Positions 1-6,011 of a DNA stretch of 30,007 nt are shown here, in pieces. The stretch lies in the IMG/VR virus record IMGVR_UViG_2667527770_000007; one strand, given 5' to 3'. Position 1 is the first letter of the stretch. Each line of letters starts with the position of its first letter. The translations under genes and the position numbers were made by a program. The DNA comes from a virus (lineage: Duplodnaviria > Heunggongvirae > Uroviricota > Caudoviricetes). Below the pieces are notes generated by a model. The model ran no database searches. It saw nothing but the letters and a program-made list of their open reading frames with translations, and was not told where the DNA came from.

Positions 1-936
1 ATGAAAATTTCTTTAGTCGTTCCGGTCTTTAACGAAGAGGCCACGATACCTATTTTTTATAAAGCCGTGCGCGAATTTGAAGGGCTTCAGCAGCATGAAG
101 TCGAGATAGTCTTCATAAACGATGGCAGCAAAGACGCTACAGAATCAATTATCAACGAGCTTGCTGTTGCCGACCCGCTTGTGGTTTCGCTGTCGTTCAC
201 ACGTAACTTCGGCAAAGAACCTGCCCTGTTCGCAGGTCTGGACCATGCTACCGGGGAGGCAATTATCCCGATTGACGTTGATCTGCAAGACCCTATCGAA
301 GTTATTCCTCACTTGATAGAGAAATGGCAGGCCGGTGCAGATATGGTTCTGGCTAAACGCTCTGACCGCTCCACTGACAGCAGGCTGAAGCGTAAATCTG
401 CTGAGTGGTTCTATAAACTTCATAACAAAATCAGCAACCCTCAGATAGAAGAGAATGTTGGCGACTTCCGGCTCATGTCTCGCGAAGTAGTAGAAAACAT
501 TAAGCTCATGCCAGAACGAAACCTGTTTATGAAGGGGATACTATCCTGGGTAGGTGGTAAGACAGATGTGGTTGAATACGTAAGAGCCGAAAGAGCCGCA
601 GGAAAAAGTAAGTTTAATGGCTGGAAACTGTGGAACCTTGCTCTAGAAGGTATCACAAGCTTCTCAACTTTCCCTCTGCGCATGTGGACTTATATCGGCC
701 TGTTCGTTGCTGGCGTGGCGTTCCTGTACGGAGCGTGGATGATTATTGATACCCTTGCTTTCGGTAATGCTGTGCGCGGTTATCCATCTCTGTTGGTTTC
801 GATACTCTTCCTCGGCGGTATTCAACTTATAGGTATTGGCGTGCTTGGAGAGTACATAGGTCGAATTTATATTGAGACAAAAAGAAGACCGAAATATTTA
901 TTGAAAAATTCCAAGGGGAATAGTGTTGATGTTTAG
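1..936 (+). CDS. gtrB: Bactoprenol glucosyltransferase GtrB (GT2 family); window begins at its ATG
   Basis: 311-aa ORF; N-terminus [13 protein letters not shown]...INDGSKDAT and DxD-type region (IPIDVDLQD) with C-terminal TM helices are typical of GtrB/YfdH as I recall it. Identity is from memory, not a search. Confidence 0.9.
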
Positions 937-2326
937 TAAGTTAATGGCATTGAAAATTGATGAAATAGGCCGTGAGAAGTCACTGGCATTTATGGTATTA
1001 TTTAGTTTCGTGGTAATGATGCTAGGTAGCTCAAGAAGCATATATGGCGTTTACATGCCTGATGACTTTTTATTGGCCTCTCAAAAGATGCCTATGTCAT
1101 TCTATCTCAATCAAGGCCGCTTTATCCAAGCTGCCATTACAGGCTTTTTTAACTATATTGACATCAATATTGTATCTTCAAGCCCTATATTCACCCCGCT
1201 ATTTTTTATTTCAACATCACTTGCATCATCTTTATTAGTAATTACCTTATTAGAAAAAAGATCTTCTTTAATTATTTCATGTTTACTTTCGGGTGCAATT
1301 GTTAGCCACCCAGCTTTCAGCATGATGTCTGTATATCACCTTGCTGTTGTTTGCTTTGCTCTTTGCATGATTTGCATTGTTGGTTACATGATTTCATTTG
1401 ATGATTTCATAAAAACACACAATACCAGATCTGCTCTAACTGCTTCTTTTTTCGTGCTTCTAGTTTGCGGAAATTATCAATCCGCCTTTATAGTAATAAT
1501 AATTTACTCAGTTATTCGGATATATATTGTAGAGCATAAATTGTTAACTTTGAACAATATTAAAGCGGCCTACCCTATCATTGTTGGTTTAGTTGCTTAT
1601 GCTATCTTCTTTAAACTAACAAAAAATATGCTTGGTGAAAACCACTGGGATTCAAGAGCTGGTTTAGTCGAAGATCCATCGCTGCGCATACGGGAAATAT
1701 TTGCTTTCCTCCCTAGCTTTTTTTATAAAAATTGGTGGGTTATTCCAAAGCAATTTGGCATAGTTTTATCAGTTGCTTCAGCCTTTTACATTACAACTTA
1801 TTTATATAAATCAAATAAACTAACTGCATCATTAGCATTAATCCCTTTTCTTTTACTAACAGCTATTGTAATGCCTCTGGCTTTACTGAAGGTATGGGAC
1901 CCAACCCCCCGAGCACTATTTTCTATTTCGTTTCTTTATCCTTCTGTCATGATTCTCTTTTACAATGAGTCGATGATTAGACTTAAGGCAATATTGCTTT
2001 CAATAGCTGTACTGTTTGGACTTATCTCTTCTAATGGCTATCTTTATCAGACGGAAATGGCACAAAAGAAAGATGCCTTACTAGCGATAAAATCGTACAA
2101 CTTGGTAAAGAATAGCAGAGTTAAGGCGAACAGAATCGCTATTGTGAATAATAATGCAATAAACGTCGACTCCTGGGCCTTAAATGGGCTTATCTACTTC
2201 TTGACAAATGAGAATATGAATATCTCATCGCCAACTGAAGATGAGATTGAGCAGTGTGATAAATTTAAAAACGAAAATCGCTTGATTGAAGGTAAAGAAT
2301 CACTTTTAGTTTGCTTGTCTAATTGA
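929..2326 (+). CDS. Serotype-specific O-antigen glucosyltransferase (GtrC-type), polytopic membrane protein
   Basis: 465-aa strongly hydrophobic ORF immediately after and overlapping gtrB (ATG at 929 preceded by AAGGGGA; the ORF track's 923 start is GTG). Markedly AT-rich compared with the rest of the window. Position and composition are classic for the type-specific third gene of gtrABC; family assignment is positional, specificity unknown. Confidence 0.7.
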
Positions 2327-2348
2327 CTGGAAGAATTATTCGTTTAGA

Positions 2349-2367
2349 AGGCTCCTCAATGGAGCCT
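2349..2367 (+). terminator. Hairpin downstream of gtrC (AGGCTCC-TCAAT-GGAGCCT), possible weak terminator
   Basis: 7-bp perfect inverted repeat seen in sequence 23 nt after the gtrC stop; no clear U-tract, so function is uncertain. Confidence 0.3.
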
Positions 2368-2435
2368 AATATTAAGGTTTCTCAGGCCAACTAATGTTAG
2401 GTGCTACAGATGTATCTATCTCCTGAACCTTTTTG

Positions 2436-3632
<1,197 letters not shown>

Positions 3633-3839
3633 CTAAGCCAAAGAGATTGAACTCACCTCACCGGGGGTATAGACTTGCCTTGATTCACAACAAATTGATT
3701 TCTTGAAAGAGATTTCTCTACCTCCCGGTTCCCGACCGTGAGGGATTTTTTTTGCCAAACGTGCTGATATGCCCCTTACCCATTTACTTTATATGGCTAT
3801 ACCATTAGCATGCGCGCCGCTTTGTTATAAACTAGGTGA

Positions 3840-3885
3840 TGGTGCCGATAATAGGAGTCGAACCTACGACCTTCGCATTACGAAT
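3840..3885 (-). other. Partial tRNA-Thr(CGU) gene, 3' 46 nt only (anticodon loop to CCA); phage attachment-site relic
   Basis: Minus-strand sequence ...ATTCGTAATGCGAAGGTCGTAGGTTCGACTCCTATTATCGGCACCA matches the 3' portion of thrW-type tRNA-Thr as I recall it; the 5' half (acceptor/D arm) is absent and the sequence diverges upstream of the anticodon stem. Confidence 0.7.
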
Positions 3886-4119
3886 CTGTAGCACCAATCA
3901 TAACTATCTGTTTTAGCAAGCATTAACCGCATTCACTAAGTTATAGTTGATGGCACAAACAGAAAGTTGATGCATGATGTTGTCATGCGTATGTCACAAA
4001 TACGGCACAACAATCTTCAAATATGTAGACACACATCCACAGGAGAGCACAAAGCCTTGCAATACAGTGCAAAGCCTTGTGTGTCTCAGTTTTGTCCTGT
4101 GTGCCAGATATTGAATGGC

Positions 4120-4722
4120 CTACGCCTCCGGCAGTTCAGGCCAGATGACATCCGGCGCGGTGCTGGTATCTGTTGCCGTCACCGCGTCAATGTAATCCAG
4201 CACAGCGTTAAGGCGGGTTGTTTCTGCTTGCGTCAGCTGCCGCCCGGCCCGTAATTTCAGCTGAATCAGACTAATGGAAGCCATTGCAGCATCAATCAGT
4301 GACTGGCGTTGGATTTCTGCCGCGTCCACTGCGGCGCTATATTGTGCCTCAGTATCCGTCACCCATTTCTCACCATCCCATTTATCATATGGCGTTAACG
4401 GGGCGATAGTGGTTGTATTTTCAGGGTAATCACCCAGAGCTGTGATTTCTTTCGATTCTCCTGTTTCGGTGCTATAGATGATTTCACCGCGATGGTCTGG
4501 CACATATTCCCATGAGTTAAAATCTGCAGAACGGCAGATTGCATAACCAGCTTTGTTTGAGCCAGGAGCATCTAAACAGGAATGCGCCGGAATACCGACA
4601 CCCACAGCAAGATACTCAGTTGATGTGGAAATATATCCCCGCGTTTCTCCGTTGTAGTTATAAACGTTAATAAAGCCGGGTTCCGTGGCAATAAATTCAC
4701 TGTTTAATTTTGCCTGTGTCAT
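4120..4722 (-). CDS. Tail fibre assembly protein (Tfa chaperone)
   Basis: 200-aa ORF with the conserved Tfa-type C-terminal region (...KWDGEKWVTD...AETTRLNAVLDYIDA...), overlapping the tail-fibre stop by 1 nt (TAATG). Confidence 0.8.
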   Translation of the reverse strand: MTQAKLNSEFIATEPGFINVYNYNGETRGYISTSTEYLAVGVGIPAHSCLDAPGSNKAGYAICRSADFNSWEYVPDHRGEIIYSTETGESKEITALGDYPENTTTIAPLTPYDKWDGEKWVTDTEAQYSAAVDAAEIQRQSLIDAAMASISLIQLKLRAGRQLTQAETTRLNAVLDYIDAVTATDTSTAPDVIWPELPEA

Positions 4723-5423
4723 TATGCAGCCCTCACGATGTAGTTAAATGCAATGTTGCGGGGGCGCGTTTCATTTCCGCCTGTGTCGCTGGTATCTCTG
4801 CCTGCTTCACCGTGAAAATCGTATACAGCACCAGTTCCGTTATCTGCAGCCCAGGCTTTAAAAAACTTAAATTCGTGGTGGTGCGCTTTAAATAAATCGG
4901 ACTGCGCCGAGAGAAGCGCGCGCCCTTCATCCACCCCACGTCCGTCATCCCAGCCACGGATAAATTCTCCGCGTAAATCAGGCAATCTATTTGTTGGATA
5001 AGCCTTTGCCAGTTCCGGGTATTCTTCAGCAGAAAATGCCGCACCGTTGCATTTCAGCCAGCCTGTTGGCGGTGTGGCTGAAGGCCATGGAACAGGCACA
5101 CCAACAGGTAATGCAGAGCCTTCTCCCAAATCAAGATTTTCGAGAGCCGTTTTCACCGTGCCATCCGATTTGATATCGCCAAACGGATTCTTGCGGCTTA
5201 ACAGCAGCGCACGAAGTGCGGTAAGCAGCTGGTCATGCCGCCCTTTCTCCAGGCTGGCACCGGAGGCCTCCACCACGCTACAAAGTTCTTCCTGCAACAT
5301 GTCAAAGTAGTCATCATCCAGATCGGTGGCAGGTGTGCCGGTCTGGGGGTTACCACGGGTAAAACCGTTCTTACCCGCGCCGAACTTATCCTTCTGCGCG
5401 GTTTTCGTGTCTATACGATGCAT
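4722..5423 (-). CDS. Short tail fibre protein with C-terminal tail-collar-like domain
   Basis: 233 aa; N-terminus [21 protein letters not shown]... typical of baseplate-attached tail fibres; directly upstream of tfa. Confidence 0.7.
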
Positions 5424-5426
5424 GGA

Positions 5427-6011
5427 TTACTCCGGATATTTAAAAATTACGTAGGTATGCGAAGGGCAGAGTTTGTTAAGCACGCACTCGACGACGGTGT
5501 CGCCCCAGATACGCAGCGCGGTATCACAGGGATCGCCACATGTCATCCAGGTGGTGTTGGTGGCGGCTGGCATGTTGACCTGCCAGTAATACCGCCATTC
5601 CGGCGCATTCACCGCGTCAGTACAGGCCGATGAGCAGGTAAACGTGCTTTTATCGTATCGCGTGATAGTGGCGTCTGGTCTGCCCAGGGCAGCAAGCTGT
5701 GCAAGGTAAAAATCCTCATTGATGCCGCCCGCCAGATTAACCTTCGCATCCAGCCGTTGCTGACGCTGGCGAAGGGTCTGTGTCCCTGCGGGAATACATT
5801 CATCCGGCAGACCGCACAGACGCTCCCAGCGGTTTATCAGTTCAGTGGTGGTGCGCGGATCCAGCTCCCGCATCAGGGCATCCGCACGCTGATGAACGCG
5901 GGTTAATGACGGTGCCGCACCGGCAATCGCCGGATCTCTGGCTGACCACGCCGGACCGGGTGGCAACAGTGCCGACAACAGACGGATGTAATCATCGTTT
6001 GTCACGTCCAT
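5427..6011 (-). CDS. Mu gp48-like tail protein (DUF2313-type)
   Basis: 194 aa; position between baseplate-J-like gene and tail fibre; family call by pattern recognition only. Confidence 0.55.

What the first reader, a model, noticed from the sequence alone, without database searches (positions are those of the whole stretch)
3840..3885. tRNA-Thr(CGU) 3' fragment between the gtr cassette and the phage tail genes
A 46-nt copy of the tRNA 3' end is the usual signature of a phage att core after site-specific integration. Here phage-type genes lie on both sides (gtr on the left, tail fibre on the right). So this is either the prophage boundary with the gtr cassette belonging to a neighbouring or tandem element, or an internal relic marking where the gtr moron was acquired. 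In the K-12 CPS-53 remnant, as I recall, gtr and tfa are neighbours but the integration tRNA is argW, which makes a thrW-type fragment here notable.
Basis: partly seen in the sequence, partly recalled or inferred. Interest (0 to 1): 0.45.

Follow-up and report, generated by a model that had tools for sequence, protein, structure and literature searches.

The report
Leftover thrW attachment half-site inside prophage
The 46-base tRNA-Thr fragment is real, but it is a leftover half of an old phage attachment site inside a mosaic prophage, not the present prophage boundary, so it is an ordinary recombination scar.

Summary
**Observation: confirmed.** Window 3840-3885 (minus strand) matches nt 31-76 of E. 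coli thrW tRNA-Thr(CGU) 46/46, and base 3839 also matches. This is the published 46-bp attP core of SfI, SfII, SfV, SfX and P22.

**What it is.** It is half of an HK75/mEp213/SfX-type thrW attP.
- The core and the tail-side arm (3886-4109, 93-96% identical to those attP sites) are kept.
- In those phages int ends 13 nt from the core. Here the int-side arm and int are gone.
- They are replaced by 8 unassigned bases, a 198-bp spacer, an IS5-family element with no target duplication, and gtrB/gtrC.

**Context in relatives.** The same spacer-core-arm-tfa block occurs in 8 of 5,426 complete E. coli genomes. Seven are assigned to an integration site: sbcB/dacD (2), yecE (3), dusA (1) and thrW (1). 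The closest relative has a prophage bounded by the known 13-bp sbcB att repeat, and the fragment lies about 4 kb inside it.

The spacer normally follows a different cargo (GT-A plus a HAD-like gene). So the fragment does not mark where gtr was acquired.

**Verdict.** Most likely an inert scar of an integration-module or cargo swap. How the junction formed is unresolved. The window's own left flank cannot be seen. Interest is low.

The parts
1..936 (+). gtrB (family 2 glycosyltransferase). The window begins at its ATG.
   Evidence: Pfam PF00535, E=2e-30. Corresponds to the annotated GT2/yfdH gene in L001, L004 and L014.
923..2326 (+). gtrC-type serotype-specific glucosyltransferase
   Evidence: Pfam PF14264 (GtrII), E=4e-12. 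99.9% DNA identity to the cassette of ET82 at the dacD/sbcB locus.
2436..3632 (+). IS5-family element (ISKpn26-like), transposase 2504-3484. Left flank is TTTG and right flank is CTAA, so there is no 4-bp target duplication. It is a rearrangement joint.
   Evidence: The same right flank occurs in H1, E8 and I3. The left flank differs in I3 (inside gtrC) and the DNA to the right differs in ET82, so deletions have occurred next to both IS ends.
3633..3830 (+). Spacer: the 3' tail of a cargo module. Contains a hairpin at 3721-3743 followed by T8 (terminator-like on the + strand).
   Evidence: Found in only 11 of 5,426 E. coli genomes. In 8 of them it lies downstream of a HAD-like gene, preceded by GT-A in 7. 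In the MIN9/PK8277 type it is followed by a different tfa with no thrW core.
3831..3838 (.). 8 bp (actaggtg) of unassigned origin between the end of spacer homology and the core
   Evidence: The apparent match to the thrW flank of BR1220 is judged to be chance.
3839..3885 (-). thrW tRNA-Thr(CGU) 3' end (nt 31-76 plus 1), i.e. the 46-bp attP/attB core of thrW-integrating phages
   Evidence: PMC3636060.
3886..4109 (-). Tail-proximal arm of an HK75/mEp213/mEp043/HK446/HK542/SfX-type attP. Contains CACAAATACGGCACA (3995-4009) and a 50-bp block with two CAAAGCCTTG repeats (4046-4098).
   Evidence: 93-96% identity to annotated attP regions. Layout int -> core -> arm in HK75 and SfX. Motifs.
4120..4722 (-). 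Tail fibre assembly protein (tfa)
   Evidence: Pfam PF02413, E=5e-31.
4722..5423 (-). Tail fibre protein (collar domain), the end of an SfV/Mu-like tail module
   Evidence: Pfam PF07484. 96% identity to SfV, SfI, SfII and SfIV from 5120 onward.

Best explanation
The fragment is the core of a vestigial half attachment site. An ancestor of the tail/tfa module belonged to a thrW-integrating phage with the HK75/mEp213/SfX layout: xis -> int -> 47-bp core -> about 225-bp arm -> tail genes. In the lineage of this window, everything on the int side of the core was replaced. That includes the second arm, which in those phages lies inside the 3' end of int, and int/xis themselves. The replacement was first a cargo module (GT-A plus HAD-like gene plus terminator-like spacer). 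Later, an IS5-mediated rearrangement brought in a gtrABC cassette that travels with a different integration module.

Shown: the anatomy, the homologies, the break of homology at the core edge, and the absence of any integrase in the window. Also shown: in relatives the site lies inside prophages that use sbcB, yecE, dusA or SfV-type thrW integrases.

Inferred: the site is now inert, because it has no second arm and no cognate Int. It acts only as 47 bp of perfect homology to chromosomal thrW and to other thrW-type att sites.

Inferred with lower confidence (about 50:50): the junction arose by recombination at the core with a partner that carried a thrW 3' end followed by the spacer. This would be like the hybrid att site of a lambda-bio-type aberrant excision. 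The alternative is an illegitimate break that happened to fall at the core edge.
For: 1. 47/47 identity to thrW and to the published attP core.
2. 3839-4109 matches annotated attP sites of HK75, mEp213, mEp043, HK446, HK542, mEpX2, ECP1 and SfX at 93-96%. The match starts at the first core base.
3. In HK75 and SfX, int stops 13 nt from the core. The window has unrelated DNA there, and tblastn with five integrases finds no remnant anywhere in the window.
4. The identical spacer-core-arm-tfa junction occurs in 8 of 5,426 E. coli genomes. Seven are assigned: sbcB/dacD (GDSC2239PM, E8), yecE (WCHEC050613, W444, PI12), dusA (YD786) and thrW (I3). ET846 is unassigned.
5. The GDSC2239PM prophage is bounded by CGTAATCGTGAAA in the sbcB 5' end, with int next to sbcB. 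This is the attP core published for Sf101 and phage 2851.
6. Graded relics exist elsewhere: WEM25 keeps 18 nt of core plus the arm plus tfa, ES10 keeps 12 nt plus the arm, and ET120 has gtrC abutting tfa with no relic.
7. The IS5 lacks a target duplication in every carrier. The spacer belongs to the GT-A/HAD module.
8. In I3 the resident Int is SfV-type (98% to SfV Int). HK75 Int is 55% identical to SfV Int (57% to I3's Int), and the two attP types share only the core and a 46-nt block in their arms, so the relic's arm is non-cognate even there.
Against: - The window begins at gtrB, so its own integration site and integrase are unseen. No genome in the collection is identical to it.
- Strain I3 shows the block can lie in a prophage at thrW with three direct cores. 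A boundary-like or tandem reading therefore cannot be formally excluded for the window.
- The partner predicted by the recombination-at-core model is an intact thrW followed by the spacer. It was not found in 5,426 E. coli genomes, one IMG/VR scan or one metagenome scan. Other genera could not be scanned by DNA.
- 8 bp at 3831-3838 remain unexplained.
- Inertness is inferred, not tested.
Confidence: 0.8

Rival explanations
1. Active prophage boundary. The phage on the right is integrated at thrW and 3839-3885 is its attR. The gtr cassette plus IS5 would then be a neighbouring or tandem element.
For: The site has attR-like geometry: phage arm, core, then non-phage-arm DNA. It has the same orientation as the late genes. 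In strain I3 the prophage is at thrW, and the gtr segment is bracketed by two direct cores, with the intact thrW as a third.
Against: - The DNA left of the core is not the thrW-downstream chromosomal flank.
- The same junction lies at sbcB, yecE and dusA loci.
- The window's gtr-IS5 part is 99.9% identical to ET82's, which lies at dacD/sbcB.
- In I3 the Int is SfV-type and its cognate arm is the outer one.
- The closest full-length relative is bounded by sbcB repeats.
Confidence: 0.08
2. A still-functional secondary att site. It would be used by HK75/SfX-type Int supplied in trans. It might serve as a landing pad for thrW-specific phages (prophage into prophage) or as a joint for site-specific gain and loss of the cargo cassette.
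For: The core is intact and one full arm keeps its conserved motifs. thrW-specific phages are common. Prophage-into-prophage integration is documented in E. coli (PMC8112680, title and abstract only, listed).
Against: - None of the 8 E. coli carriers, nor the IMG/VR and metagenome contigs that carry the core, has anything inserted at the site. All have the same spacer-core-arm junction.
- No second arm is present.
- No cognate int is found in the window or in any inspected relative.
Confidence: 0.07
3. Chance similarity, or a host tRNA pseudogene unrelated to phage integration.
For: None beyond the absence of a full tRNA.
Against: 47/47 identity against 0 expected by chance. The contiguous 225-bp arm is homologous to annotated attP sites.
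Confidence: 0.01

Closest known systems
attP of thrW-integrating lambdoid phages HK75, mEp213, mEp043, HK446, HK542, mEpX2 and Shigella phage SfX
   Same: Identical 47-bp core and a 93-96% identical tail-side arm. The arm has the same orientation relative to the late/tail genes.
   Different: Those sites have int ending 13 nt from the core, so the second arm lies inside int. The window has unrelated spacer DNA, IS5 and gtr there, and no int.
SfV/SfI/SfII/SfIV serotype-converting phages (tfa - gtrC gtrB gtrA - attP - int)
   Same: Same 46-bp core and SfV-like tail and head genes. The gtr cassette is convergent with tfa.
   Different: In SfV the core lies beyond gtrA, next to int, and has a different arm. 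Here it lies between tfa and gtrC. SfV Int is only 55% identical to HK75 Int.
Hybrid att site of lambda-bio/gal-type specialised transducing phages (textbook knowledge)
   Same: One phage arm plus the core is joined to foreign DNA that replaces int/xis.
   Different: No donor locus with a thrW core next to the spacer was found, so this origin is a hypothesis. The phage then needed a new integration module.
ptwF, the thrW 3' pseudo-tRNA at the right end of K-12 cryptic prophage CP4-6
   Same: A displaced copy of the same thrW 3' end (match at L012 3710-3741).
   Different: ptwF is a genuine prophage-chromosome junction at the thrW locus. The window's copy lies inside a prophage and has phage or cargo DNA on both sides.
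sbcB-integrating phages Sf101 and Stx phage 2851
   Same: The closest relative of the window's prophage uses the same 13-bp att core, CGTAATCGTGAAA, in the 5' end of sbcB.
   Different: Sf101 is Sf6-like and carries oacB. It matches only 52 nt of the conserved block in the arm (window 4044-4095), not the core or the rest of the arm.

Membership tests
thrW-type phage attachment core (SfI/SfII/SfV/SfX/P22/HK75) | 46-bp identity to the thrW 3' end (anticodon loop to CCA) | tested here: met
   46/46, and 47/47 with the next base.
Complete, functional attP of the HK75/SfX type | Tail-side arm homologous to known attP | tested here: met
   3886-4109 is 93-96% identical to annotated attP regions.
Complete, functional attP of the HK75/SfX type | Int-side arm and a cognate int/xis immediately adjacent to the core | tested here: not met
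   Homology stops at 3839. The spacer is unrelated, and no integrase or remnant is found in the window.
Prophage-chromosome junction (attL/attR) of this prophage | Chromosomal DNA on one side of the core | tested here: not met
   The left side is cargo spacer, IS5 and gtr. The same junction occurs at four chromosomal loci.
Prophage-chromosome junction (attL/attR) of this prophage | A second direct copy of the core at the other prophage end | not testable with these tools
   Neither end of the prophage lies in the window, and only one copy is present in 30 kb. In relative GDSC2239PM the terminal repeat is the sbcB 13-mer. In I3 the intact thrW and an outer core are the ends.
Functional tRNA gene | Complete cloverleaf detected by tRNA and RNA-family models | tested here: not met
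   ARAGORN finds 0 genes. Rfam finds no hit at E<=1. Only nt 31-76 are present.
IS5-family insertion sequence (simple insertion) | DDE transposase and terminal inverted repeats | tested here: met
   PF01609 and PF05598. IRL GGAAGGTGCGAACAAG and IRR CTTATTCGCACCTTCC.
IS5-family insertion sequence (simple insertion) | 4-bp target-site duplication flanking the element | tested here: not met
   TTTG on the left versus CTAA on the right. No carrier has a duplication.

The most novel reading that the evidence does not exclude
The orphan 'arm plus core' site is not dead. It would be a reusable modular joint. With an HK75/SfX-type Int supplied by a co-resident or superinfecting phage, it could let thrW-specific phages integrate into this prophage. 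It could also let the cargo segment next to it be captured or shed site-specifically. That would explain why different cargo cassettes and integration modules are found on its int side.
Probability: 0.08. Interest if true: 0.5.

Novelty: new member of a known kind. Interest (0 to 1): 0.2.

Why it matters
Practically, it is a warning for annotation. A perfect tRNA 3' copy next to phage genes is usually read as a prophage end. Here that would cut the gtr O-antigen-modification cassette off its prophage and assign the wrong integration site.

Biologically, it is a datable scar. It shows that an SfV-like tail module once belonged to a thrW-integrating phage and has since been recombined with sbcB-, yecE-, dusA- and SfV-type thrW integration modules. 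It has also been joined to at least two different surface-glycan cargo cassettes, and IS5 took part in the joining. This illustrates how serotype-converting cargo moves between phages. It does not reveal a new mechanism.

Tried and rejected
- **tRNA and RNA-family searches.** ARAGORN on the window and Rfam on 3000-4600 gave nothing, so this is not a tRNA gene.
- **Search for a donor locus (intact thrW followed by the spacer).**
  - The spacer occurs in only 11 of 5,426 E. coli genomes, always in prophage context.
  - IMG/VR gave 1 hit and JGI/ENA metagenomes gave 2 hits. These showed only the two known configurations.
  - No phage record matched the spacer.
- **The single genome-contig scan.** It found homologues in a Salmonella chromosomal glycan cluster near nei-gltA-sdh, about 70% identical over the full-length proteins found by the protein search, not next to thrW. 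This suggests where the cargo came from, not how the junction formed.
- **BR1220 flank.** An apparent extension of the match into the thrW flank of BR1220, which carries a P4-like satellite at thrW, was judged chance similarity.
- **Integrase remnant in the spacer.** tblastn with five integrases found none.
- **Terminator scan.** The simple scan did not flag the 3721-3743 hairpin plus T8. Folding shows it, but the z-score is not significant, so it is only 'terminator-like'.
- **CAAAGCCTTG repeats as Int arm sites.** I set this aside as unproven. The 50-bp block also lies upstream of gtrA in CPS-53, where no thrW att exists.
- **Alternative excision in I3 through the internal core.** This is unlikely because I3's Int is SfV-type and the relic's arm is HK75/SfX-type.

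Full report
**1. The observation**

Window 3840-3885 reads tggtgccgataataggagtcgaacctacgaccttcgcattacgaat. Its reverse complement equals nt 31-76 of K-12 thrW, tRNA-Thr(CGU), at L003 2872-2947. The identity is 46/46, and base 3839 also matches the base after CCA.

A 45-nt exact search finds one copy in the window, against 0 expected in 100 shuffles. The stretch hits annotated tRNA-Thr genes at 100% in thousands of E. coli genomes. It is also the 46-bp attP/attL/attR core published for SfI, SfII, SfV, SfX and P22 (PMC3636060).

It is a fragment only. ARAGORN finds no tRNA in the window and Rfam finds nothing in 3000-4600.

**2. Anatomy of the neighbourhood**

From left to right:

| Window coordinates | Strand | Feature |
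|---|---|---|
| 1-936 | + | gtrB |
| 923-2326 | + | gtrC, GtrII family |
| 2436-3632 | + | IS5-family element, ISKpn26-like (transposase 2504-3484) |
| 3633-3830 | + | 198-bp spacer |
| 3831-3838 | . | 8 bp of unassigned origin |
| 3839-3885 | - | thrW core |
| 3886-4109 | - | attP arm |
| 4120-4722 | - | tfa |
| 4722-5423 | - | tail fibre |

Beyond the tail fibre lie an SfV/Mu-like tail module, an HK97-like head, terminase, lysis genes and a cI-like repressor. tblastn with five integrases finds no integrase or remnant anywhere in the 30 kb.

**3. What the fragment belongs to**

Window 3839-4109 matches the attP regions of HK75, mEp213, mEp043, HK446, HK542, mEpX2, ECP1 and SfX at 93-96% identity. 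Several of those records annotate the region as 'attP; prophage integration site; similar to thrW tRNA gene and ptwF'. The match begins at the first base of the core.

In HK75 and SfX the layout is xis -> int -> (13 nt) -> core -> arm -> tail or gtr genes. The second arm of those attP sites therefore lies inside the 3' end of int. In the window the int side is replaced by unrelated DNA.

The site is thus one arm plus the core of an HK75/SfX-type attP. This is the geometry of a hybrid, attR-like site.

SfV, SfI, SfII and SfIV share only the 47-bp core and a 46-nt conserved block in the arm with the window. Their arm is otherwise different, and SfV Int is only 55% identical to HK75 Int.

**4. 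It is not the prophage end in any relative examined**

The spacer is rare, occurring in 11 of 5,426 complete E. coli genomes. Eight of these carry the full spacer-core-arm-tfa block:

| Integration site | Genomes |
|---|---|
| dacD/sbcB | GDSC2239PM, E8 |
| yecE | WCHEC050613, W444, PI12 |
| dusA | YD786 |
| thrW | I3 |
| not assigned | ET846 |

GDSC2239PM matches window 1-6000 over 100% of its length at 98.3% identity. Its prophage runs from sbcB|int to gtrA|dacD. It is bracketed by CGTAATCGTGAAA within the old and new 5' ends of sbcB. This is the attP core published for Sf101 and phage 2851 (PMC4159516). The thrW fragment lies about 4 kb inside that prophage.

The window's gtrB-gtrC-IS5 part is 99.9% identical to that of ET82, which also sits at dacD/sbcB.

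**5. It does not mark gtr acquisition**

- The IS5 has no 4-bp target duplication: TTTG on the left and CTAA on the right.
- In I3 the left IS end sits inside gtrC. In ET82 the right IS end is joined to early genes. The IS has therefore produced rearrangements on both sides.
- The spacer right of the IS is, in 8 of its 11 E. coli carriers, the 3' tail of a HAD-like gene, preceded by GT-A in 7 of them. One IMG/VR contig and two metagenome contigs show the same spacer tail.
- In the MIN9/PK8277 type the spacer is followed by a terminator and a different tfa, with no thrW core. Homology to the window ends at 3830.
- ET120, an sbcB-type relative, has gtrC 30 bp from tfa and no relic.

So gtr and the fragment were brought together secondarily, probably through IS5.

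**6. Graded relics**

WEM25, at dacD/sbcB and without gtr, keeps only 18 nt of the core (window 3868-3885) plus the arm and tfa. ES10 keeps 12 nt of the core plus the arm. The tail-side arm therefore persists next to tfa in several lineages whose integration module has been changed, with breakpoints at different positions. The window's copy is the variant in which the whole core survived.

**7. The special case of I3**

The order in I3 is: proA, thrW, int (98% identical to SfV Int), then the rest of the phage up to tfa, arm, core, spacer, IS5, a truncated gtrC, gtrB, gtrA, SfV-type arm, core, chromosomal flank, yagP. There are three direct thrW cores.

However, the outer core with the SfV-type arm is the site cognate to the resident Int. 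The internal relic has the HK75/SfX-type arm.

**8. Mechanism**

Best explanation (confidence about 0.8): this is a vestigial half attP inside a mosaic prophage. It is inert because it lacks its second arm and a cognate Int. It acts only as 47 bp of homology to thrW and to other thrW-type att sites.

How the junction arose is uncertain.

- For recombination at the core, either Int-mediated or homologous, as in the hybrid att site of a lambda-bio-type aberrant excision: homology to attP ends exactly where attP/attB identity ends, and int/xis are the genes that were replaced.
- Against it: no intact thrW followed by the spacer was found in E. coli, IMG/VR or metagenomes. Also, 8 bp are unaccounted for, and other relics break at arbitrary positions.

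Homologues of the HAD-like cargo gene (about 70% identical) lie beside a GT-A-like gene in a Salmonella chromosomal glycan cluster near nei-gltA-sdh, not next to thrW.

**9. Comparison with known systems, and novelty**

The core, the thrW site, the sbcB site and gtr cassettes next to att sites are all described. But thrW is the usual site for SfV/SfX/P22-type gtr phages, so a thrW-type core is not surprising.

My two literature searches listed no paper on an internal HK75/SfX-type half attP between tfa and cargo, judging from titles and abstracts. Only two of the listed papers were opened. It is nonetheless an instance of well-known phage mosaicism. I rate it a new member of a known kind, with low interest (0.2).

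The most novel reading not excluded is that the orphan site still works as a modular joint or landing pad when a cognate Int is supplied in trans. No occupied variant was seen among the 8 E. coli carriers or the IMG/VR and metagenome contigs that carry the core. I put this at about 0.08.

Noticed in passing
window 2436-3632 (also L005 5801-6996 and L014 8436-9631): The IS5-family (ISKpn26-like) element has no 4-bp target duplication in any carrier. In I3 its left end truncates gtrC at window position 1305. In ET82 its right end is joined to phage early genes, with the whole late region deleted. It looks like a repeated source of adjacent deletions and joins.
   Followed up: partly
window 4046-4098: A 50-bp block with two CAAAGCCTTG repeats followed by gtgtctcagttttgtc. 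It also lies upstream of gtrA in SfV, I3, GDSC2239PM, E8 and ET82. In K-12 CPS-53 it lies between intS and yfdG (L034 2226-2276, 90% identity). It seems to travel with the upstream boundary of the gtr cassette rather than with a particular att site. Its role (promoter or regulatory region, or a module-boundary sequence) is unknown.
   Followed up: partly
L005 3810-3887 (E. coli I3, chromosomal flank downstream of thrW); compare L011 3430-3500 and L010 2715-2784: The native E. coli DNA just downstream of thrW resembles the last ~70 nt of the HK75/SfX int gene, including CACAAATACGGCACA. That motif also occurs in the window's arm at 3995-4009. The chromosomal flank may itself be a fossil of an old integrase 3' end.
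   Followed up: no
L002 3054-5844 (also L006, L007, L008, L009, L021, L036): An alternative cargo occupies the place of gtrABC: a GT-A glycosyltransferase plus a 647-aa HAD-like protein, with a truncated IS1 to its left in most E. coli carriers. The HAD-like protein is about 70% identical to a Salmonella chromosomal gene. That gene sits in a galactofuranose/ABC-transporter glycan cluster next to nei-gltA-sdh (L032). This is probably a second kind of surface-glycan-modifying moron.
   Followed up: partly
L029 3980-4010 (WEM25) and L030 3990-4012 (ES10): Truncated versions of the same relic: 18 nt and 12 nt of the thrW core, still attached to the HK75/SfX-type arm. In WEM25 the DNA to the left looks, by eye, like the 3' end of an integrase gene.
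   Followed up: partly
L037 1123-2289 (E. coli ET846): A phosphoethanolamine transferase gene flanked by IS1 and IS5 copies lies just upstream of the HAD-like cargo of the related prophage. It was not checked whether it is an mcr-type gene.
   Followed up: no
L022 1-5845 (E. coli BR1220): In this strain thrW is occupied by a P4-like satellite (integrase, Icd-like protein, P2-family capsid gene, DUF927 primase-like gene). This illustrates how many element types compete for the same core.
   Followed up: no
window 6000-30007: The window is mosaic relative to every complete E. coli genome searched. Positions 1-3643 match ET82 best (99.9%, dacD/sbcB locus). Positions 3637-4119 match E8 at 100%. 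Positions 6000-30007 match dusA-integrated prophages best (GCEC19 and YD786, about 98%). No single source genome was found.
   Followed up: partly
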